Position numbers and translations under genes: made by a program. A stretch of 45,637 bases of DNA from a virus, in the IMG/VR virus record IMGVR_UViG_3300045988_028519. One strand, written 5' to 3'. Shown here one piece after another: positions 1,774 through 30,458 of the stretch (its first letter is position 1; each line of letters starts with the position of its first letter). Under the pieces are notes generated by a model, which was not told where the DNA came from, did not search any database, and saw only the letters and a list, made by a program, of their open reading frames with translations.

Positions 1774-4700
1774 TCAGACTTCGCACAGGAGACGCGCGGA
1801 AACGCTCCGGTTAGGACTCGGAGAATCAAAGATAACATTGAAGTACAAAAGACCCGCAACCGCACCAGCGCCCCAATAGCCACCAACATTCAACACGCGC
1901 CAACCAGAGGACGACCACATTTGGTCCGGAATATACGTCGTTTCCGAACCGCCGGTAGTTTTAGGAATGAGCAGACCATTGTCTGTAACGATCAAATCCT
2001 TAATGTAGCCAGATGCAGGCAGTGTACCAATCTTGGTGTAACCGGTCGAGGTATCGTCCGCGTACTTGCTCGGGTCAGTGCAGTAGTAAGCCGTTGTACC
2101 ATTGGCGTTAAAGCCGTCTACCCACTGGCGCACGTTGCCCCAGAGGTTTTCCAGCCATCTATATTGGACAGCGGTCTTACCATCTGTACCGGATGCGCGT
2201 CCCGTGTGATAGGTCATGCAGTCTGTGCCACCAGAACCGATTGCAGAGGGATTATTGTTAGTGTATCCTTGTCCGATCTTAGACTGACAGTTCCAGTTTG
2301 CAAACTCAACAATGTACAGAAAGATAATTGCACAGTAGGTTGCGAAATCATACAGATGATATTTCGAGCCGAGCGACTTAGCTTTGTTGCGCGCCGTTGC
2401 GCAGGTCATGTTTACATACGGGTCGCTGCCGCTCACGCTCTGACCGCTGCTGTTCATATGGTAGCGGCCAACGTATTTCCCACTGCCCGGATGTTTCGCC
2501 ATACCGATTTGCGGTTTGTCGGACACATAGAAATACTGCTTCGTACCGCTACGCTTCTGAGCCACATAAAACACAGGAATAAACACCATGATATTGCTGT
2601 TCATGGTGGTTTTCACCATGCCATTCCACGGTGCATAACTATCAAACGGACTACTGCCCGAACCGGTACCTACCGCCGGTTTCGGTTCAGTTGATACCGA
2701 CTTCGTAACCAGTCCGTATGGATCAGTGCTCGGTGTTAAGCGCGTCAGCGCCGTGCTCGAATTACTCGTATCCCAACAAACACCGAACACGTTAGCGTAA
2801 ATCAGCATCAAGGACGCGTTCTGCCCGTTCTCGGTAACGCTCACCGTGCCCCTTGCAAGCTGATCGTCAAGTGTCGCCTTGATTGCCCAAGTACCGGCCT
2901 CATCTACTGTAAACGCAACCTCACCAGCGTCGCTTGTTGCGGTCAGCACCATATCTCCCAGTGTAGCCGTAACCGTCGAACCACTGTCCACCATAACGGT
3001 AATCGTCGCCCGGAATGCGGTCAGTCTCACGCTCAGTGCCGTGTAGTACGCCTTGGTCGTAACTTTTGCGGTGTACGTCGTACCGGACAGTGCAGCACTC
3101 AGGGTGTAGGTAGTGTTAATGCCGAGCACGCTTACAGTTGCCGTCTTGCTGCTGTCAACCGTGCCGGTGTAGGTTTCGCTGCCGCCGGAGAGTGTCCATG
3201 CCTGCCCGACAAAATCAGCCGCAAAGCGCATCGTGATGCGGCTGCCTCCAGAGGCCGGTGCATCCACCTCACCCACGGTGTTGTCCGCCGTAAAGCCAAC
3301 AAATTTACCTTTTTTGCCCTTGAGTTTGTCCTGCTTTTCCGCAAACAGCGCACTGTGTGCATCCGCCGCAGCATTGTGCGCGGATACCGCGCTCGCCGCT
3401 GTGCCCTTTGGGTCTGCACCAACCTGTGGCGCCGTCACGCCGTGCGGATTGCTCTTGCTTGCAATATGCGTATTCAAACCGGTTTGTGCAGTATCCGCAA
3501 CACTCTTTGCCTCACCCGCCTTTGCGTCCGCATACTGGAACACATCCTGCGCCTTGCCCTTTGGGTCATAAACGCTTGCCAGCATATCGCCCGCACCCTT
3601 GCCGTCCTCGCCCTTTTGGGCAATCAGCAGCCAGTACGCGGTATCGGTCGGCGCATGTCCGGTTGTTGCAGCTGTGCATACATAAGACGAGCCGTTAAAG
3701 CTGACCTTGTTTCCGGGCACATACGCCTTGTCTGCGCTGTACTCCTCCCACACGTTGCGTGCTTTCTCGGCGGTCTGACGGGCGGTTTCCGCAGCGGCGC
3801 GGCTCTTTTCTGCACTCACGCGGGCGGTCTCGTTCGTCTGACGGGTGCTTTCCGCACTTACTCTTGCGGTTTCGGCGCTCACGCGCTTTGTCTCGGCTGT
3901 TGCTCTCGCGGTCTCCGCATCCGCTCTCTTGCCCTCTGCCGTAGCTCTCGCGCTTTCGGCACTCACACGCTTTGTCTCCGCGTCGGTTCTGCCGGTCTCT
4001 GCGTTCTGTCGAGCAGTTTCCGCAGCAGCTCGCTTACTTTCTGCCGTGGCTCTTGCCTGTTCTGCCGATACTCTCGCGGTCTCCGCGTCCGCGCGTGCCT
4101 TTTCGGCATTTGCTCTTGCCGTCTCTGCACCCACGCGGCTCTGTTCTGCGGTCTGACGGGTGCTTTCCGTGCTTTCTCTCTGCTGTTCCGCACTCGCGCG
4201 TGCCTTCTCCGCAGATTTTCTTGCGTTCTCGCCGCTTTCGCGCACGGTCTCCGCAGAGGCGCGGCCTGTCTCGGCGCTCTTTCGCGCGGCCTCATTGGCG
4301 ATACGCGTATCCTCGGCGCTCACGCGGTCTGCCTCGGCATCCGCTCTGCCGGTCTCGGCAGAAATACGCGCCGCTTCATTCTGTGCACGGACGCTCTCTG
4401 CGTTCGCCCTCTGGCTTTCTGCCGTCACGCGGGCAGATTCGGCGTTCACTCTGCCGGTCTCAGCAGAAACGCGGCTCTTTTCCGCGGTGTCGCGCTTGTT
4501 CTCCGCATTGGCGCGGGCGGTCTCTGCATCCGCACGAAGGTTCTCTGCCAGTACGCGTGCCGCCTCTGCCGCCGCTCTTGCGGTCTCCGCGTCCGCACGG
4601 TCATTTTCTGCCTGCACTCTCAGGTTTTCCGCTGCCACTCGTGCGGCTTCTGCCTGAACGCGCAGCGCTTCCGCGCTCGCCCAGTCCTGTGCTTCATTCT

Positions 4701-14093: not shown

Positions 14094-14130
14094 AAAAAAG
14101 CCGCCCCGGTTACTTGGAGCGGCTTTTGTC
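14094..14130. terminator. Bidirectional hairpin terminator between the RHH gene and terS
   Basis: AAGCCGC (14098-14104) pairs with GCGGCTT (14119-14125). An A-run lies on one side and a T-run on the other. Confidence 0.55.
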
Positions 14131-14364: not shown

Positions 14365-14448
14365 TATCATTGCTCAATTATACAATTCCACTAAATATCA
14401 TTGCTCAATTATGTTTACTTTACCTATTGCGTATCATTGCTCAATGAT
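14365..14448. promoter_or_regulatory. Three palindromic operator-like sites, TATCATTGCTCAAT(T/G)AT
   Basis: Copies at 14365-14381, 14396-14412 and 14432-14448. The third contains the perfect inverted repeat ATCATTG-CT-CAATGAT. All three lie in the divergent intergenic region next to the RHH gene. Confidence 0.65.
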
Positions 14449-14510
14449 ATATACTGTAATCACAACAAAGGAAAACACAAACCACCGAAAACAAAATGGA
14501 GGTACACACC

Positions 14511-14666
14511 ATGTTAAACACTAAGACCCTTACCGAGAAGAAAACCACAGCGCTCACCATCTACAAGGCAGCCAAAGCCGCTTACCTTGCAGACCAGAGC
14601 AAAGAAAACTGGATCACATTCTGTGACGCTCGCCGCACCTGCATGTTACTCGGTGTACGCATTTAA
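14511..14666 (+). CDS. Small hypothetical protein (51 aa), first gene of a plus-strand cassette
   Basis: ATG 8 nt after GGAGG. The product is MLNTKTLTEKKTTALTIYKAAKAAYLADQSKENWITFCDARRTCMLLGVRI. Confidence 0.5.
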   Translation: MLNTKTLTEKKTTALTIYKAAKAAYLADQSKENWITFCDARRTCMLLGVRI

Positions 14667-14679
14667 GGAGGTAATCACA

Positions 14680-14886
14680 ATGGCCATCATTAACAAGACT
14701 TTCGCCATCGGCGACACCTACCGCGGCACTCGCGGCGATCTCTTTACCGTAACCGCCACCGGCACACGCAAGATCAACGGCACGCGCCGCACGAGCACCG
14801 CAACCGTCACCCTCACGCACGAGGGCGGCAAGGCTTACGAACTCGACCTCTCCCACGCACAGTGCCTCTTGCTTGCCAAGTGCTAA
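14680..14886 (+). CDS. Small hypothetical protein (68 aa)
   Basis: ATG after AAGGAGG. The product starts MAIINKTFAIGDTYRGTRGDLFTV... Confidence 0.5.
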   Translation: MAIINKTFAIGDTYRGTRGDLFTVTATGTRKINGTRRTSTATVTLTHEGGKAYELDLSHAQCLLLAKC

Positions 14887-14944
14887 AGGTTCTTATTAAC
14901 CAACCACCCGCCCCGGAGGAACGAGGGCAGAAAGGAAAACCATC

Positions 14945-15214
14945 ATGACTAAGCTAATCGCCATTATCGCCGCCCTGCTGCAGATCGTACCGGCCACCCG
15001 CACCATCTCCGGCGAGGTGTACCGCATCGACTACCCGACCGGCACGCAGGACGCGCCTATTGTTACCATCGTCACCGAAGACGGCCACGAGTGGATCACA
15101 GATGACTACATCGCACCGCGTCACACGCCGCTTGAGATCACATTCAGCACCAACAGCACCGCGGACGTAACCGACGACGAGATCATCTTCATTACATCCA
15201 CCTGGACGCGTTAA
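14945..15214 (+). CDS. Small protein with an N-terminal hydrophobic (signal/TM) segment
   Basis: 89 aa. The product starts MTKLIAIIAALLQIVPA.. and has an acidic C-terminal part. Confidence 0.5.
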   Translation: MTKLIAIIAALLQIVPATRTISGEVYRIDYPTGTQDAPIVTIVTEDGHEWITDDYIAPRHTPLEITFSTNSTADVTDDEIIFITSTWTR

Positions 15215-15298
15215 GCATGGGAGCCTCACCGCTCCCTCTCATTCTCCCGCCCGGCTCACGCACCCGCGTCAGAGTATTTTCTAAATAGCATAGCAAAC

Positions 15299-15328
15299 CC
15301 CGCTCACCAAAGCCATAAGGTGAGCGGG
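15299..15328. terminator. Perfect 10-bp hairpin, probable bidirectional terminator ending the plus-strand cassette
   Basis: CCCGCTCACC (15299-15308) pairs with GGTGAGCGGG (15319-15328). It is followed by ATTTGCC on the plus strand and GTTTGCTATGCTATTT on the minus strand. Confidence 0.5.
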
Positions 15329-15334
15329 ATTTGC

Positions 15335-16365
15335 CATATTATACGACTGTTTCGGTTTTGCAGGACTCGCACCTGCTTTCAGCACTATGCAAACCGGTAT
15401 ACCTCCACAGGGAGGTATGAACGCTATCGTCGCGTCTGTACGTCGGGCTTTTACCGAGGCTTGCGCCGCTGTCCAGAACGGTTGTATGAAATCCAGAGAG
15501 GTATTACCTCACTTTCGCAAGTTTACTTGTGTTCCGTCCTGTGATTAGGTATGCTTACAAGAGATAAACAGACTGGTGCTCTTTCGCGGCGTGTACTTAG
15601 CCGCCCGAAAGCGCCGTATCGGCTTTGTAACTTTGTACCGGTGGTTTTGCTCTCGGCTCACTAAGTCCGTGTGAGTGCTTATCCGGGCAGCACTCGCCCT
15701 CTCATTATGGGCTGTTCGGCGTTGCTCTCCGTCGTGTCGCAGTTGCTATCGGTCTGTAATCCGGCTGATTTCCTCGTAAGGTTACAGCGGGGAGCGACCC
15801 CGGTCGCGGCGTGCCTGCAAGCACCCGCTGAACTCTGCAAAGCTGTTGCAGCAGCTCCGCATACGTTCGGAAACAGATTGTCCGTCTTTCCGGACCGCCA
15901 GAATATTATCGTCCTCGTTGGAGGCGTTGTGCTCCCTCCGCCTCATGCAGCTTTGGGAACAGATCGCCTTGCACGTCGTCCGTCATGCAAGGCTTGCCAA
16001 AAGTCCGCCACATTTCCCTTGGCTAAAAAGGTTCCATACGTTACCCGTCCGGCCTCATGCAGCCATTCGGGCATGTTTGCGGTGACTGTTGCCCGCAGGC
16101 ACCGCATCCCATTCTCAATTTTTAGCGTGAATATTATTACTCCGTCACCCTCATGCAGGCTTTGGAGCATATCGGCGTGCCGCGCAAAAGACACGCCGAA
16201 AGAATAGAAAGGATAATCAATGCCTTCGTTCCGTGAAAGGCGCTCCGCCGCCCTCATGCAGACTTTGGAGCAGGTCAGCGGCAGGATTTCCCCGCCGCCT
16301 AAAACGGGACTTTGGGTAGAAATGGAGGAACGAAACTCCGTGATTCTGCTCTTACGAGCTTTTAT
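15335..16365. ncRNA. Candidate large structured non-coding RNA or structured leader (strand unresolved)
   Basis: This is about 1 kb without a credible ORF in a tightly packed genome. It has many perfect 5-10 bp hairpins, alternative pairings and four tandem structured units. It is bounded by the 15299-15328 hairpin and an extended -10 at 16375-16383. Confidence 0.4.
15941..16298. repeat. Four tandem imperfect units (112, 96, 103 nt apart): box CCTCATGCAG-NYTTYGGRRCA plus a hairpin 24-26 nt downstream of the box start
   Basis: Boxes start at 15941, 16053, 16149 and 16252. The hairpins are 15966-15993, 16078-16106, 16173-16198 and 16278-16298. Confidence 0.85.
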
Positions 16366-16374
16366 CACAATACT

Positions 16375-16383
16375 ATTATAACA
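16375..16383 (-). promoter_or_regulatory. Extended -10 element (TGTTATAAT) on the minus strand; the -35 is poor
   Basis: The reverse complement of 16375-16383 reads TGTTATAAT. It would fire into the repeat region. Confidence 0.3.
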
Positions 16384-16422
16384 CCAGTTTTTGTGGTATA
16401 GTGTGGTAAGTTTTCCACAGAT

Positions 16423-16779
16423 TCATGCACAATCTGTTAATAACTTCTCCACTTCCCGCAGGGCGCGAACGTGCATCCGTCCGCGCACATGATCCTCGTT
16501 ATAGTGAATCTTTTCGGCGGTCTCTCTCCACGTCCGACCGTTTACATAGTGCTCGATCAGCAGTGCCCGCAGCGCCGCGTCCTGTACTTTAGCCGTTGTG
16601 CTGATGATCTCGGCCTTAATCAGTGCAAGCCGTTCCTGTTCTCTCTGTATCTTCTCGCTGAGTGCAAGGTAAGCATCGGCTTTGTTTGCGGTCACGTCAC
16701 CACCGCCGCCCGGCGTGTCCTTGATCGTCGCCGTTGCGCTTGTCGCCCGCGTCCACGCCCTTACTCTTGCTTCCTCCAA
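16423..16779 (-). CDS. Late-gene transcriptional regulator, sigma-70 region-4 / DUF1492-like
   Basis: The C-terminus LLIEHYVNGRTWRETAEKIHYNEDHVRGRMHVRALREVEKLL fits the sigma-r4 HTH of phage DUF1492/RinA-type activators. The annotated start is TTG, and the true N-terminus is uncertain (see findings). Confidence 0.6.
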   Translation of the reverse strand: MEEARVRAWTRATSATATIKDTPGGGGDVTANKADAYLALSEKIQREQERLALIKAEIISTTAKVQDAALRALLIEHYVNGRTWRETAEKIHYNEDHVRGRMHVRALREVEKLLTDCA

Positions 16780-16825
16780 TGCTGAGATCGACTTTTCCAG
16801 ATCAATCCCGCGTCTGAGCCATTCC

Positions 16826-17041
16826 TTAGTCGTCGTGTGCTGTCACCTCTTCCGTACCAAATTTCGTGTATCTTCTCCGGCGGCTGATCTTATCCGCTTT
16901 TCTTGTGCATTCCGCTCCGGGTTCGCACCCTCTCAGCTTGCCCGTGTCCACCATGTAATGACACGCCCACAGTTTTGACCCATGACTTGTCCCCAGTACC
17001 CGCCAAAATGCGCACCCAGCGCATTCGCTTTTCTTTTTCAT
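16826..17041 (-). CDS. Small Cys-rich protein
   Basis: 71 aa. Cysteine motifs are CAGCAFW..ACHY..RGCEPGAEC. Its start overlaps an upstream open frame via ATGA. Confidence 0.6.
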   Translation of the reverse strand: MKKKSECAGCAFWRVLGTSHGSKLWACHYMVDTGKLRGCEPGAECTRKADKISRRRRYTKFGTEEVTAHDD

Positions 17042-29880: not shown

Positions 29881-30088
29881 CGTAGTGAGAGGGTTATTCT
29901 TTTCTTTCTTTCTTAGAAAGTTAAATTAATATATATTCGACCGTAGGGAGAATATATATATACTTCTTTTCTTTCTTTGTTACTTTCTTTCTTACGCCTC
30001 GGTGTGTTGATGGTTTGTTATCGGTCTGTTATCGGTTTGTTGATTGTGTGTTATCTGTGTGTTGATGGTCTGTTGTTAGAGTGTTATC
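29881..30088. repeat. Origin-like block: duplicated CGTAG-GAGA..TTCTTTTCTTTCTTT segments with a (TA)n core, then eight TGTTnnn iterons at exact 11-bp spacing
   Basis: The iterons start at 30005, 30016, 30027, 30038, 30049, 30060, 30071 and 30082 (TGTTGAT/TGTTATC/TGTTGTT). Confidence 0.7.
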
Positions 30089-30343: not shown

Positions 30344-30382
30344 TGTTAGTTGCCTGTTAGTTGCCTGTTAGTAGACTGTTAG
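30344..30382. repeat. Four TGTTAG iterons at exact 11-bp spacing upstream of the wHTH gene
   Basis: TGTTAG occurs at 30344, 30355, 30366 and 30377. Confidence 0.8.
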
Positions 30383-30458
30383 CTGCGCGCTGGCTTTCCG
30401 CTGCAACTCCGTGCCGTGCTTTGTCGTTCGCAGCCCTTGCGCTTACACGCTCAAATGT

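What the first reader, a model, noticed from the sequence alone, without database searches (positions are those of the whole stretch)
15931..16365. Tandem array of ~100-nt units: a conserved 25-nt box plus a position-locked hairpin whose stem sequence covaries
- **Box positions:** the box CCTCATGCAG-NYTTYGGRRCA starts at 15941, 16053, 16149 and 16252, with spacings of 112, 96 and 103 nt.
- **Hairpins at a fixed offset:** a 7-8 bp hairpin begins 24-26 nt after each box start, and the stems differ in sequence.
  - Unit A: GCCTTGCA/TGCAAGGC (15966-15993).
  - Unit B: TGCGGTG/CACCGCA (16078-16106).
  - Unit C: CGGCGTG/CACGCCG (16173-16198).
  - Unit D: GCGGC(A)GG/CC(C)GCCGC (16278-16298).
- **Compensatory change:** units B and C differ at three stem positions and every difference is matched on the opposite arm.
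- **Flanking features:** each box is preceded by a CTCCG-like element. A degenerate fifth unit may follow at about 16335-16365 (ACTCCGTGATTCTGCTCTTACGAGC).
- **Against coding:** two of the three spacings are not multiples of 3, so the box falls in different frames of the only ORF here (15943-16368, minus strand).
- **Against other known classes:** the hairpins have no U-tracts, so they are not terminators. The repeats are imperfect and the 'spacers' share structure, so this is not a CRISPR array or a ToxI-like array.
- **Interpretation:** I know of no described element with this architecture. Possibilities are repeated protein-binding RNA modules (a boxA/boxB-like or put-like antitermination leader, or a decoy/sponge RNA), or a DNA-level array for TerS or the late activator upstream of the packaging genes.
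Basis: partly seen in the sequence, partly recalled or inferred. Interest (0 to 1): 0.85.

Follow-up and report, generated by a model that had tools for sequence, protein, structure and literature searches.

The report
Large phage RNA with hairpin modules
The repeat array is the front third of an undescribed, roughly 1.1-kb structured non-coding RNA that sits beside the late-gene regulator of many human-gut Clostridia phages and ends in a decayed tRNA; its function is still unknown.

Summary
Four boxes lie at the stated coordinates (0.02 expected by chance), each next to a position-locked hairpin.

- **Strand and unit.** The array is RNA from the minus strand. Each unit has a variable hairpin (Hp1), a 3-5-nt A/U-rich linker, and a second hairpin (Hp2) formed by the box and the "CTCCG" element. 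Hp2 has two covarying stems, a 3x3 internal loop, an invariant U.G closing pair and a GCRYGA hexaloop.
- **Whole element.** The array is the 5' third of an RNA of about 1.08 kb (about 16368 to 15285, minus strand). It has its own extended -10 promoter just after a sigma-region-4/Q-like regulator gene, a conserved 5' stem-loop, a structured central domain, a tRNA-like acceptor/T-arm minihelix and an intrinsic terminator.
- **Distribution.** 79 of 80 phage loci chosen only by regulator homology carry the hairpins, always on the sense strand. Hosts include Agathobaculum/Butyricicoccus; all metagenome hits are from human gut.
- **tRNA link.** Distant relatives have a real tRNA-Met where the window has the minihelix. 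In some, the orthologous Hp1 is followed directly by tRNA-Met instead of Hp2, and terS follows the terminator.
- **Known families.** No Rfam family matches. The region is not coding, not a DNA site array and not CRISPR or ToxI.

It is a new large tRNA-linked phage RNA family. Its function is inferred, not shown.

The parts
15285..16368 (-). Whole inferred non-coding RNA (about 1.08 kb), from the predicted start to the end of the terminator tail
   Evidence: The stretch is conserved as a block at 87-96% identity in about 70 viral contigs, with lengths of 815-1199 nt. Substitutions show no codon periodicity. Public gene callers call no conserved gene here. Fold z-scores on the sense strand are -4.5 for the array and -5.5 for the 3' part.
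16392..16406 (-). Conserved upstream motif CCACACTATACCACA (core ACACWATA) around -35; candidate regulator binding site
   Evidence: The core is conserved in the near, far and L314 groups at the same distance from the -10. The combined motif plus -10 pattern occurs once in the window against 0.00 expected. The binding role is inferred.
16375..16386 (-). Extended -10 promoter TGGTGT-TATAAT with no good -35; predicted start at about G16368
   Evidence: Read directly from the sequence. Equivalent TRTGnTATAAT/TATACT elements occur in every group. Transcription has not been shown experimentally.
16340..16368 (-). 5'-terminal stem-loop module (outer stem GUGAU/AUCAC, inner hairpin GCUC-GUAA-GAGC).
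   Evidence: The stems are compensated between groups: GCUC/GAGC, GCCC/GGGC, GCUCC/GGAGC, GCCCC/GGGGC, and GUGAU/AUCAC versus GUGG/CCAC. The Hp2 model does not match here.
16277..16299 (-). Unit D, hairpin Hp1
16242..16271 (-). Unit D, hairpin Hp2 (box): GCUCC AAA GUCU GCAUGA GGGC GGC GGAGC
   Evidence: Covariance model hit of 47 bits. Pair counts.
16172..16199 (-). Unit C, hairpin Hp1
16139..16168 (-). Unit C, hairpin Hp2: GCUCC AAA GCCU GCAUGA GGGU GAC GGAGU
   Evidence: Covariance model hit of 49.8 bits. Pair counts.
16078..16106 (-). Unit B, hairpin Hp1
16043..16072 (-). Unit B, hairpin Hp2: GCCCG AAU GGCU GCAUGA GGCC GGA CGGGU
   Evidence: Covariance model hit of 52.2 bits. Both stems are compensated relative to units C and D.
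15966..15993 (-). Unit A, hairpin Hp1
15931..15960 (-). Unit A, hairpin Hp2: GUUCCC AAA GCU GCAUGA GGC GGA GGGAGC
   Evidence: Covariance model hit of 52.3 bits. Pair counts.
15419..15930 (-). Structured central domain. It includes the hairpin GUCCG-GAAAGA-CGGAC at 15880-15895, the island best conserved between groups
   Evidence: RNAalifold helices with compensatory changes. z = -5.5. Islands are shared with the far group. The stems of the GAAAGA hairpin covary between groups (GUCCG, GCCCG, GCUCG, GCGUG).
15399..15418 (-). 3' hairpin AUACCUCC-CUGU-GGAGGUAU, which precedes the tRNA-like element
   Evidence: Conserved base AUACC/GGUAU with a covarying top. The same hairpin precedes the real tRNA-Met in L426, L430 and L431.
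15353..15396 (-). tRNA-like minihelix: an acceptor-like stem (CGGUUU/AAACCG) and a T-arm at 15360-15376 (GCAGG-UGCGAGU-CCUGC), joined by a 14-nt linker. This is a degenerate tRNA
   Evidence: Model R2, built on the near group only, finds it in all far-group loci, L314 and L425. 94.3% of cells are paired; 6 of 6 acceptor pairs and 3 of 5 T-stem pairs covary. Relatives carry tRNA-Met(CAU) at this position. Neither ARAGORN nor Rfam calls a tRNA in the window.
15290..15337 (-). Intrinsic (bidirectional) terminator hairpin with a 19-bp stem, followed by a U-rich tail
   Evidence: 9 covarying pairs. Equivalent terminators occur in all groups.
16423..16779 (-). Regulator gene. The conserved N-terminus extends to about 16832. 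It is a sigma-70 region-4-like HTH protein of the RinA/DUF1492/Q-like kind
   Evidence: PHROG 36, E = 4.5e-10. Sub-threshold matches to Phage_antitermQ (7 of 7 members), DUF1492 and Sigma70_r4. In 79 of 80 loci it is followed by the Hp2 array.

Best explanation
**Shown**
- The boxes and hairpins are four tandem two-hairpin modules of a non-coding RNA read from the minus strand.
- Each module has Hp1 (7-10 bp, free sequence, often a GNRA or UUCG loop), a 3-5-nt A/U-rich linker and Hp2.
- Hp2 is a rod of 12-13 layers: outer stem, 3x3 internal loop, inner stem, an invariant U.G closing pair and the hexaloop G-C-R-Y-G-A.
- The modules form the 5' third of a transcription unit of about 1.08 kb. It begins at an extended -10 promoter about 40 nt after the stop of a sigma-region-4/Q-like regulator gene and ends at an intrinsic terminator.
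- Just before the terminator it carries an acceptor/T-arm minihelix.
- In more distant phages the same position holds a genuine tRNA-Met(CAU).
- The orthologous Hp1 is followed directly by tRNA-Met in some relatives and by Hp2 in others.
- In some relatives terS starts about 20 nt after the terminator.

**Inferred: what the element is**
- It is the promoter-proximal, terminator-bounded, tRNA-linked leader RNA of the late/packaging operon. This is the position of the lambda PR'-6S RNA-tR' leader and of the tRNA genes of Stx phages.
- In the window's lineage it grew by unit duplication while its tRNA decayed.
- It was also uncoupled from terS by a convergent gene cassette and a separate RHH/terS promoter region.
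- It therefore now behaves as a stand-alone late RNA gene.
- Hp2 is a positional substitute for the tRNA and is probably derived from it.

**Inferred: how it works (my commitment, about 0.4-0.5)**
- The RNA acts in trans as a multivalent scaffold. It displays 2-6 copies of one invariant loop/helix to a partner.
- The partner may be a tRNA- or hairpin-binding protein that is titrated, or identical loops on other copies of the RNA.
- The 3' tRNA-like element gives it a defined, protected or RNase P-processed end.
- Copy number is tuned by gain and loss of units.
For: **RNA, and which strand**
- Hp2 pairing holds in 90.7% of cells, against 77% in shuffles (0 of 500 reach it) and 32-61% when the register is slid.
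- Pairs 8:33 (UA/CG), 10:31 (CG/GC) and 15:26 (CG/GC/UG/AU) covary.
- There are 44 of 44 U.G closing pairs and 18 G.U pairs at 6:35, possible only on the minus-strand RNA.
- 76 distinct Hp2 variants fold to the same shape.
- Hp1 is at least 6 bp in 95% of copies against 25% of shuffles.
- Fold z-scores for the array are -4.48 on the sense strand and -1.65 on the antisense strand.

**Not coding**
- The peptide-like motif sits in three frames, and TGA/CGA/GGA alternate at one in-frame codon in relatives.
- Substitutions show no 3-periodicity (p = 0.77-0.88), and there are 13-15 stops per sense frame.
- There is no Pfam or PHROG hit.

**Extent**
- The conserved block is 815-1199 nt.
- Promoter and terminator are conserved in every group.

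**Linkage to the regulator**
- 79 of 80 loci picked by regulator homology alone carry 1-5 Hp2 copies on the sense strand and none on the antisense strand.

**tRNA link**
- A model of the 3' module built on the near group finds the module in all other groups. 94.3% of cells pair and 10 of 19 pairs show changes on both sides.
- tRNA-Met(CAU) lies at the equivalent place in L426, L428, L430 and L431.
- L425 and L426 have regulators each 99% identical to the same query. One has the minihelix and the other has tRNA-Met after the same hairpin.
- Hp1 of the CCCGUCCNGC type is followed by tRNA-Met in L428 and L429, by a tRNA-like element in L430, and by Hp2 in L431, L425 and L426.

**Leader position**
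- terS (Terminase_2, E = 4e-10) starts 23 nt after the terminator in L431 and at about the same distance in L430.

**Stand-alone status in the window**
- The next genes are convergent.
- RHH/terS has its own promoter region with three operator-like repeats.

**Trans-acting scaffold**
- The loop is invariant at G1, G5 and A6 over 350 copies.
- Units per locus range from 1 to 5 or more, with frequent gain and loss.
Against: - No transcript, processing site or binding partner has been observed. Every functional statement is inference.
- Minimal relatives (L427, L431) have a single Hp2, for which multivalency cannot be the point.
- Relatives L428-L430 have the same regulator-leader-tRNA-terminator-terS layout without any Hp2. 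The modules are therefore an accessory, not the core of the element.
- The co-conserved Zn-ribbon/Arg-rich protein is absent from distant Hp2-bearing loci, so it is not an obligate partner.
- Derivation of Hp2 from a tRNA rests on position, size and linker similarity, not on demonstrable sequence homology.
- Covariation counts come partly from paralogous copies and, for the 3' module, from a model-fitted alignment.
Confidence: 0.45

Rival explanations
1. Cis-acting processive antitermination leader (put-like, or nut/N-like). Each two-hairpin module, as it emerges, binds the transcribing RNA polymerase, alone or with a phage protein. The polymerase then reads through the element's own terminator and later ones into terS and the late genes. 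Repeated modules raise the chance of modification.
For: - The element lies between the regulator-adjacent promoter and the packaging genes, in the same orientation, in all loci.
- In relatives terS starts about 20 nt after a strong terminator with no room for a promoter, so read-through is required.
- The window also has a strong terminator just before terS.
- The module is two hairpins of about 65-70 nt, like put of HK022 (from my own knowledge).
- The regulator gives weak Phage_antitermQ matches in 7 of 7 members.
- An Arg-rich Zn-ribbon protein is encoded just upstream in three groups.
Against: - L428-L430 have the same terminator-then-terS layout and no Hp2, so Hp2 is not needed for read-through there.
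- In the window and all eight close contigs examined, the element is followed by convergent genes. In the window, RHH/terS also has its own promoter-like region.
- There is no boxA-like linear element on the sense strand.
- The Arg-rich protein does not co-occur with Hp2 in distant loci.
- The 600-nt central domain and the tRNA-like end are unexplained by this model.
- The Q-like matches are below Pfam thresholds and overlap generic HTH and sigma region-4 matches.
Confidence: 0.2
2. Self-assembling 'ornate' RNA of the ROOL/GOLLD kind. The Hp2 loops (C-R-Y-G core flanked by purines) form kissing contacts with identical or compatible loops of other copies, building an RNA-only multimer.
For: - The loop cores are CAUG, CGUG, CACG and CGCG, a set closed under reverse complement.
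- The orthologous unit B shows CAUG, CGUG or CGCG and never CACG. This is the path expected for a self-complementary loop passing through a G.U intermediate.
- The RNA is large and rich in GNRA and UUCG loops, is phage-borne and is linked to a tRNA. ROOL and GOLLD are likewise large ornate RNAs, which form homo-oligomeric complexes (PMC12286853 abstract); that they are phage-borne and often lie next to tRNA genes is from my own knowledge.
Against: - The far group has two CACG loops and no CGUG partner among its Hp2 loops.
- All loop variants are single transitions, so the R-Y pattern may be only mutational.
- There is no match to the ROOL or GOLLD models.
- There is no experimental sign of multimerisation.
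Confidence: 0.12
3. Relic of a tandem tRNA array. The units are decaying copies of 'spacer hairpin + tRNA' with no present function.
For: - The unit period of 84-112 nt is close to a tRNA plus spacer.
- Hp2 replaces the tRNA after the orthologous Hp1.
- The terminal tRNA is visibly degenerate.
Against: - The Hp2 loop and closing pair are invariant, and both stems keep pairing through compensatory changes in at least five diverged groups.
- Units are duplicated as well as lost.
- The minihelix stems covary, which points to purifying selection.
Confidence: 0.05
4. DNA-level array of protein-binding sites: a pac site for TerS, or operator sites for the late activator.
For: - Direct repeats of about 20 bp, spaced about 100 bp apart, lie upstream of the packaging genes.
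Against: - Conservation follows base pairing, including G.U pairs that are A.C on the other strand.
- Folding is asymmetric between strands.
- Far-group elements are linked to two different terminase types.
- Hits occur on one strand only in 80 loci.
- The box is 1.8 kb from terS, and other genes intervene.
Confidence: 0.03
5. Frameshifted or decayed protein-coding gene with an A-D-L-L-Q-S-L-H-E-G-G repeat, or a set of small ORFs.
For: - Five peptide-like copies appear on the minus strand, and some differences between copies C and D are synonymous.
- There is a 141-aa ORF at 15943-16368.
- Some public gene calls place a 64-aa ORF here.
Against: - The copies lie in three different frames.
- An in-frame TGA occurs in 7 relatives.
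- There is no codon periodicity.
- Unit spacings and indels are not multiples of 3.
- There are no family matches.
- The ORF is not conserved among relatives.
Confidence: 0.02

Closest known systems
ROOL and GOLLD large 'ornate' RNAs (Rfam; Weinberg et al. 2009 and 2017, PMC5737381; cryo-EM PMC12286853)
   Same: - Large size (0.6-1 kb class).
- Highly structured, non-coding and of unknown function.
- Carried by phages and prophages of Bacillota (for ROOL/GOLLD, from my own knowledge).
- Physically linked to tRNA genes (for ROOL/GOLLD, from my own knowledge). Here a tRNA-Met or its remnant is the 3' end of the same unit.
   Different: - No sequence or structure match to either model.
- Built from tandem, copy-number-variable two-hairpin modules.
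- Fixed position directly downstream of a late-regulator gene, with its own promoter and terminator.
Lambdoid late leader: Q gene, PR', 6S RNA, tR', with tRNA genes at this place in Stx phages (from my own knowledge)
   Same: - The order is regulator gene, then a constitutive-looking promoter, then a short terminated leader RNA, a terminator and the late genes.
- tRNA genes and morons are inserted at the same place.
- terS lies directly behind the terminator in relatives.
   Different: - The leader is 0.3-1.2 kb and under clear structural selection.
- The regulator is a small sigma-region-4-like protein with only sub-threshold Q matches.
- The host is a Gram-positive Clostridia member.
- In the window the leader is separated from terS by convergent genes.
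HK022 put RNA and lambda N/nut (boxA-boxB) antitermination elements (from my own knowledge)
   Same: - Promoter-proximal RNA hairpin modules in a phage operon that contains terminators.
- put is a two-hairpin element of about 70 nt.
   Different: - Present in 2-6 tandem copies, and absent from relatives with the same layout.
- No boxA.
- The loop is a GCRYGA hexaloop rather than a GNRA-like pentaloop.
- No N-like partner that co-occurs throughout.
Protein-sponge RNAs with repeated hairpins (CsrB/RsmZ type) (from my own knowledge)
   Same: - Several tandem hairpins display one conserved loop motif.
- Copy number varies between relatives.
   Different: - The loop motif is GCRYGA, not GGA.
- The array is embedded in a larger structured RNA with a tRNA-like end.
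- The target is unknown.
tRNA-like 3' elements that define or protect RNA ends (MALAT1 mascRNA; tRNA-like structures of plant viruses; the tRNA-like domain of tmRNA) (from my own knowledge)
   Same: - An acceptor stem stacked on a T-arm lies at the 3' end of a long structured RNA.
- ARAGORN even calls a 'permuted tmRNA' over it in L056.
   Different: - There is no CCA in the window copy.
- The T-loop is UGCGAGU rather than UUCGAAU.
- Processing has not been shown.
DUF3800-VIII RNA motif (Rfam RF03075; Weinberg et al. 2017)
   Same: - In relative L425 a DUF3800-VIII hairpin (57.7 bits) occupies the place of Hp1 immediately before an Hp2.
- It is also a phage-associated motif of unknown function.
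   Different: - There is no match in the window or in the near and far groups.
- It is one interchangeable hairpin, not the array or the whole RNA.

Membership tests
Any Rfam 15 family (4227 models, including ROOL, GOLLD, OLE, HEARO, T-box, tmRNA, Y RNA, 6S) | Match to the family covariance model at or near the gathering score | tested here: not met
   There were no hits at gathering score over the whole window. At E<=10 over 15150-16500 only two chance miRNA hairpins appeared. Nothing reached E<=1 in L007, L024 or L003.
ROOL / GOLLD | Phage or prophage location and adjacency to tRNA genes | tested here: met
   All loci are viral contigs or prophages. tRNA-Met or its remnant lies at the 3' end. 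This is a resemblance only: the model-match feature above is not met, so I do not file the element as a member.
tRNA gene | Cloverleaf recognised by ARAGORN or the Rfam tRNA model | tested here: not met
   The window has no tRNA, only an acceptor/T-arm minihelix. Relatives L426, L428, L430 and L431 have tRNA-Met(CAU) at 48-58 bits in the equivalent place.
HK022 put RNA | A single cis-acting two-stem-loop element just downstream of an early promoter that makes RNA polymerase terminator-resistant without protein factors | not testable with these tools
   Two-hairpin modules and downstream terminators are present, but the activity cannot be tested here. I did not check whether Rfam holds a put model, so a specific comparison with put was not possible. 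Relatives without Hp2 but with the same layout argue against necessity.
Lambda N / nut | boxA linear element (CGCUCUUUA-like) followed by a boxB hairpin with a GNRA-like pentaloop | tested here: not met
   There is no GCTCTT-type boxA on the sense strand. The Hp2 loop is a hexaloop, GCRYGA.
Lambdoid Q-dependent late leader | A Q-family antiterminator gene immediately upstream of the late promoter, and a terminator before the late genes | tested here: inconclusive
   The layout fits. The Phage_antitermQ matches have E = 1e-4 to 5e-4, below the gathering score, and overlap DUF1492 and Sigma70_r4 matches.
Type III toxin-antitoxin antitoxin array (ToxI-like) | Near-identical tandem repeats of about 34-45 nt next to an endoribonuclease toxin gene | tested here: not met
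   The units are 84-112 nt and divergent. TRF finds no tandem repeat. The neighbours are a regulator and small ORFs without family matches.
CRISPR array | Identical short repeats separated by unique spacers of constant length | tested here: not met
   The repeats are 66-84% identical, the spacing is irregular, and the 'spacers' are conserved and structured.
Protein-coding gene | An open frame kept in relatives, with substitutions concentrated at third codon positions | tested here: not met
   The evidence is: three frames, in-frame TGA, and a chi-square p of 0.77-0.88 for periodicity. Searches give no family match.
DUF3800-VIII RNA (RF03075) | Match to the covariance model | tested here: not met
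   It is absent from the window. It is present only in relative L425 at 3196-3261, replacing an Hp1.

The most novel reading that the evidence does not exclude
The Hp2 hairpins are reduced tRNA-Met-derived mimics, a coaxial acceptor-like stem plus arm that keeps a C-A-U/A-U-G-containing loop. The phage amplifies them to intercept a factor that handles initiator or Met tRNA. Candidate factors are a tRNA-targeting defence nuclease, MetRS or the formyltransferase, RNase P or the CCA-adding enzyme. Alternatively the hairpins pair with the CAU anticodon itself. On this reading the RNA is a late-expressed multivalent tRNA decoy or sponge that took over from the phage's own tRNA-Met as that gene decayed.
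Probability: 0.12. Interest if true: 0.92.

Novelty: categorically new. Interest (0 to 1): 0.8.

Why it matters
- **A new large RNA class.** If the RNA is made as predicted, it would be an undescribed class of large (0.3-1.2 kb) structured RNA. Very few such classes are known in bacteria and phages (ROOL, GOLLD, OLE, HEARO, raiA), and each has opened new biology.
- **It is common.** The exact regulator protein next to it is recorded in 708 blocks of the public assembly collection. The array turns up in about 100 IMG/VR contigs and in 48 human-gut metagenome contigs. It lies in prophages of the butyrate producers Agathobaculum and Butyricicoccus.
- **It has a visible evolutionary series.** The series runs from regulator - short leader - tRNA-Met, to a 1-kb modular RNA with a tRNA stump. 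That gives an experimentally tractable route to the long-standing question of why large phage RNAs sit next to tRNAs.
- **It is a practical annotation trap.** The box translates to a plausible peptide repeat, and gene callers place spurious ORFs on it.

Tried and rejected
1. **Coding reading.** The A-D-L-L-Q-S-L-H-E-G-G motif looked like a protein repeat with synonymous differences. I rejected it after finding three frames, in-frame TGA in relatives and no periodicity.
2. **Genome-contig scan.** The pattern CTGCRTGAGG-N{80,110}-CTGCRTGAGG was too loose.
3. **Viral scan with TTCTG-N7-GGAAAGAC-N3-C.** This was also too loose. Only one true locus turned up, and it was already known.
4. **GenBank phages.** There is no DNA match to the element. 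There is no close TerL or regulator relative either, only distant Oscillospiraceae phages.
5. **MAFFT/RNAalifold on the mixed near and far 3' modules.** The stems were mis-registered and only the T-arm was recovered. I solved this by building a model on the near group and aligning the others to it.
6. **AlphaFold2 of the 71-aa Zn-ribbon/Arg-rich protein.** Mean pLDDT was 50, which is unusable, so I ran no fold search.
7. **N-like partner idea.** The Arg-rich protein is absent from distant loci that carry Hp2.
8. **Codon/anticodon reading of the loop (AUG or CAU).** The loop census weakens it: the middle two positions are simply R-Y, and GCGCGA occurs.
9. **Metatranscriptome evidence.** The metagenome scan returned only DNA assemblies from human gut.
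10. **Literature.** Searches found no description of this element. Fremin et al. 2023 (PMC10690425) list thousands of short viral motifs, but no supplement text is held, so overlap could not be checked.
11. **PDB sequence search with the regulator profile.** No meaningful hit.


Full report
**1.

- The box pattern matches four times on the + strand (15941, 16053, 16149, 16252) and nowhere else in 45.6 kb, against 0.02 expected.
- The repeat finder gives the same copies, spaced 112, 96 and 103 nt, together with the inverted repeats of units A and B.
- Tandem Repeats Finder sees nothing, because the units are only 66-84% alike.
- The genes around the array run on the minus strand:
  - a regulator at 16779-16423;
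  - an RHH gene at 14329-14147;
  - terS at 14095-13685;
  - terL at 13497-11992.
- The array lies in an ORF-poor gap from 16422 to about 15280.

**2. The array is RNA from the minus strand, and the box is itself a hairpin**

On the minus strand each unit reads Hp1, then a 3-5-nt A/U-rich linker, then Hp2.

- In unit C, Hp2 is GCUCC AAA GCCU GCAUGA GGGU GAC GGAGU.
- I collected 44 distinct Hp2 copies from the window and 104 related viral loci, aligned them (A1) and counted pairs for the two-stem structure:
  - 90.7% of cells pair, against 77.2% in shuffles (0 of 500 reach it) and 32-61% with the partner slid;
  - three or four pairs change on both sides (UA/CG, CG/GC, CG/GC/UG/AU);
  - the loop-closing U.G pair is invariant (44 of 44), and the outermost pair is G.U in 18 sequences. 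These would be A.C on the other strand.
- All but a few of the 76 variants fold to this shape on their own.
- Hp1 is an uninterrupted helix of at least 6 bp, ending 3-7 nt before Hp2, in 95% of 146 distinct unit copies. The figure for shuffled flanks is 25%. Its loops are often GNRA or UUCG.
- The array folds at -175.7 kcal/mol with z = -4.48 on the minus strand, against z = -1.65 on the plus strand.
- A covariance model of Hp2 (R1) finds exactly four copies in the window.

**3. It is not coding**

- Hp2 translates to A-D-L-L-Q-S-L-H-E-G-G. Five such peptides occur, which at first looked like a protein repeat.
- Against coding:
  - the copies lie in three frames;
  - seven relatives have TGA where others have CGA or GGA;
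  - variable alignment columns show no 3-periodicity (p = 0.77-0.88), and each sense frame carries 13-15 stops;
  - unit indels such as +5 and -2 nt occur;
  - neither the 141-aa minus-strand ORF nor the 178-aa plus-strand ORF matches Pfam or PHROGs;
  - public gene callers leave the region empty or place a non-conserved 64-aa ORF in it.

**4. The array is one part of a promoter-to-terminator unit of about 1.1 kb**

- A box-pattern scan of IMG/VR returned 113 loci.
- About 70 of them share the entire stretch from about 16316 to about 15290 at 87-96% identity (the 'near' group).
- About 22 share only islands (the 'far' group).
- Element length ranges from 815 to 1199 nt, because whole units are gained and lost. 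Many relatives have an extra 72-nt unit inserted at about 16317.
- Every group shows the same five features:
  1. an extended -10 promoter of the Gram-positive TRTGnTATAAT type, 30-50 nt after the regulator stop, with a conserved ACACWATA motif near -35. In the window these are at 16386-16375 and 16406-16392, and the combined pattern is unique in the window;
  2. a 5'-terminal nested stem-loop whose stems are compensated between groups;
  3. one to six Hp1/Hp2 units;
  4. a structured central domain with GAAAGA-loop hairpins;
  5. a hairpin AUACC..GGUAU, then a stem enclosing a T-arm-like hairpin, then an intrinsic terminator.
- The 3' half folds with z = -5.5.

**5. The element is linked to the regulator, not to the terminase**

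- The regulator is a protein of about 135 aa with a sigma-70 region-4-like HTH.
  - It matches PHROG 36 at E = 4.5e-10.
  - Its matches to Phage_antitermQ (7 of 7 homologues), DUF1492 and Sigma70_r4 are consistent but below threshold.
- I fetched 80 viral loci by regulator homology alone (54-100% identity).
  - 79 carry structure-checked Hp2 hairpins that begin about 130-170 nt after the stop codon.
  - All are on the sense strand and none on the antisense strand. The one exception is a locus truncated just after the gene.
- Far-group elements occur with two different terS/terL types.
- The exact regulator protein is recorded in 708 blocks of the assembly collection and on 354 contigs.
  - Sources name Agathobaculum butyriciproducens and Butyricicoccus sp. 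(Butyricicoccaceae, Clostridia).
- All 48 metagenome contigs found with an Hp2 pattern are from human gut.

**6. The 3' end is a degenerate tRNA**

- I built a model on the near group only (R2: the AUACC hairpin plus the stem-enclosed T-arm).
  - It finds the module in every far-group locus tested, in L314 and in L016, all on the sense strand at the expected place.
  - On that alignment 94.3% of cells pair.
  - All six pairs of the acceptor-like stem, and three of five T-stem pairs, change on both sides. The alignment is model-fitted, which flatters the structure.
  - The loop is UGCRAKU, which is T-loop-like.
- I then reached more distant regulators, about 36% identical to the window's, through an exhaustive profile search (3863 representative clusters) and fetched their loci.
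  - R1 finds Hp2 downstream of the regulator in L425, L426, L427 and L431.
  - ARAGORN and Rfam find a genuine tRNA-Met(CAU) on the same strand in L426, L428, L430 and L431. They also find a tRNA with an odd anticodon in L429.
- L431 has this order: promoter, 5' stem-loop, one Hp1/Hp2 unit, hairpins, AUGCCCC-GCAA-GGGGCAU hairpin, tRNA-Met, terminator.
- L425 and L426 have regulators each 99% identical to the same query. After the same AUACCCGC hairpin, L426 has tRNA-Met. L425 has only a minihelix, GGGGACA..GCCGG-UUCGAUU-CCGGC-UGUCCCC.
- L430 carries a tRNA-like element with an encoded ACCA end. Its T-arm (GCAGG-UGCGAAU-CCUGC) and its GCAUAGUGC segment match the window's minihelix.
- The window's 15396-15353 is therefore a tRNA remnant kept under selection.

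**7. Hp2 stands where a tRNA stands**

- The orthologous Hp1 (CCCGUCCNGC...GCNGGGCGGG) is followed by different elements in different loci:
  - AUAU plus tRNA-Met in L428 and L429;
  - AAAUAU plus the tRNA-like element in L430;
  - GACAU or AUAU plus Hp2 in L431, L425 and L426.
- The terminal AUACC hairpin is likewise followed by 1-4 A/U residues and then the tRNA or minihelix.
- Hp2 has 12-13 stacked layers (5-6 bp, a 3x3 loop and 4 bp). That is the length of a coaxial acceptor stem plus T-stem.
- I infer that the repeated unit is 'hairpin + tRNA surrogate'. Homology of Hp2 to tRNA is not demonstrated.

**8. The element occupies the position of the late-operon leader**

- In L431 terS (Terminase_2, E = 4e-10) starts 23 nt after the terminator, and in L430 at about the same distance. 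In L425, L426 and L429 the next same-strand gene also starts within about 30 nt.
- In those phages the late genes can therefore only be reached by read-through. The layout recalls lambda Q-PR'-6S RNA-tR', and the tRNA genes found there in Stx phages (from my own knowledge).
- In the window and its eight closest contigs the element is followed by convergent genes.
- The window's RHH/terS region has its own promoter-like region: three ATTGAGCAATGATA repeats and TGTATAAT. A strong terminator sits just before terS.
- In this lineage the RNA looks like a separate transcription unit.

**9. How it may work**

No experiment is available, so what follows is inference.

- *Points favouring a trans-acting multivalent scaffold or sponge, with a tRNA-like end for stability or RNase P processing:*
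  - G1, G5, A6 and the U.G closing pair are invariant over about 350 loop copies (GCAUGA 236, GCGUGA 83, GCACGA 20, GCGCGA 11);
  - the stems are free to vary provided they pair;
  - copy number varies;
  - the unit has its own promoter and terminator.
- *Rival: cis-acting put- or nut-like antitermination modules.*
  - For: position, and the terminator-then-terS layout.
  - Against: relatives L428-L430 have that layout without Hp2; there is no boxA; the convergent cassette intervenes in the window's lineage; the Arg-rich Zn-ribbon protein encoded upstream in three groups is absent from distant Hp2-bearing loci.
- *Kissing-loop self-assembly.*
  - For: the C-R-Y-G loop cores, and the CAUG/CGUG/CGCG series in orthologous unit B.
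  - Against: the far group's CACG loops. All variants are also single transitions.

**10. Comparison with known elements, and novelty**

- No Rfam family matches the window or the near and far relatives, even at E<=10.
- The only Rfam matches in distant relatives are tRNA and one DUF3800-VIII hairpin, which replaces an Hp1 in L425. DUF3800-VIII is itself a motif of unknown function (PMC5737381).
- Literature searches found no description of this element.
- The nearest kinds are ROOL and GOLLD, the lambdoid late leader, put/nut elements and CsrB-type sponges. The element resembles each in one respect and fails the defining test of each.
- I rate it a new family of large, tRNA-linked phage RNA with a modular architecture not described before. 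Its identity is well supported. Its function is open.

Noticed in passing
window 16779-16835 (minus strand): The regulator's conserved N-terminus (TTKEWL...) extends upstream of the listed TTG start and has no ATG, GTG or TTG. Homologues begin MTAKEWL. In the window the ATG is ACG, 7 nt after a GGAGGTG Shine-Dalgarno sequence, and it overlaps the stop of the upstream ORF. Public gene calls vary accordingly (90, 118, 125 and 164-167 aa). This may be a non-canonical ACG start.
   Followed up: partly
window 16826-17041 (minus strand): A 71-aa protein with four Cys (Zn-ribbon-like) and an Arg-rich tail (SRRRRYTKF) is conserved directly upstream of the regulator in the near, far and L314 groups. 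It has no family match, and the AlphaFold model is unusable (pLDDT 50). It is absent upstream of the distant regulators in L425-L431.
   Followed up: partly
window 14365-14445 (minus strand): Three direct repeats of ATTGAGCAATGATA (14445-14432, 14409-14396, 14378-14365) and an extended -10 TGTATAAT (14384-14377) lie upstream of the RHH/Arc-like gene. They look like an operator and promoter region for the RHH-terS genes.
   Followed up: partly
window 14096-14127 (minus strand): A strong intrinsic terminator (12-bp stem plus a T tract) lies between the RHH gene and terS, about 30 nt before the likely terS start. terS expression may therefore need read-through or a promoter overlapping the T tract.
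   Followed up: no
window 14496-15214 (+ strand): Three small ORFs on the opposite strand (56, 99 and 89 aa, with no family match and reversed AT skew) converge on the RNA's bidirectional terminator. This is a moron-like cassette. Relatives carry different cargo here.
   Followed up: partly
window 29999-30088 and 30344-30386: Iteron-like tandem repeats (11- and 33-nt units TCGGTGTGTTGA..., and TGTTAGTTGCC x 3.9). They may mark a replication origin or a regulatory region.
   Followed up: no
L056 3264-3979: ARAGORN calls a 'permuted tmRNA' with tag peptide ASALVIASAAVSRLYA, overlapping the 3' tRNA-like module of the far-group element. It is not called in four sister loci. It is probably a false positive triggered by the acceptor/T-arm minihelix.
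   Followed up: partly
L425 3196-3261: The Rfam DUF3800-VIII motif (57.7 bits, above the gathering score) sits exactly where Hp1 of one unit would be, immediately before an Hp2. This suggests Hp1 is an exchangeable slot, and it links the element loosely to the unexplained DUF3800 RNA motifs.
   Followed up: partly
L007, L024 (far group), just after the element's terminator: Three or four tandem 11-nt repeats (GATGTTGCTTA) lie between the terminator and the next genes. They have helical-turn spacing and may be a protein-binding site.
   Followed up: no
L431 2016-2090 (also L428, L430): By my reading, the phage tRNA-Met(CAU) has a G1/A72 mismatch at the top of the acceptor stem and a C instead of U before the anticodon. 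These are initiator-like or otherwise unusual features.
   Followed up: no
window 15943-16368 (minus strand); L235, L237, L239 and L241 at 3171-3365: The Hp2 sequence translates to a plausible peptide (…LLQSLHEGGG…), and 'CTGCATGAGG' is also the P-L-H-E core of ankyrin repeats. Gene callers place spurious ORFs on the array, and loose DNA patterns pull in ankyrin genes.
   Followed up: yes
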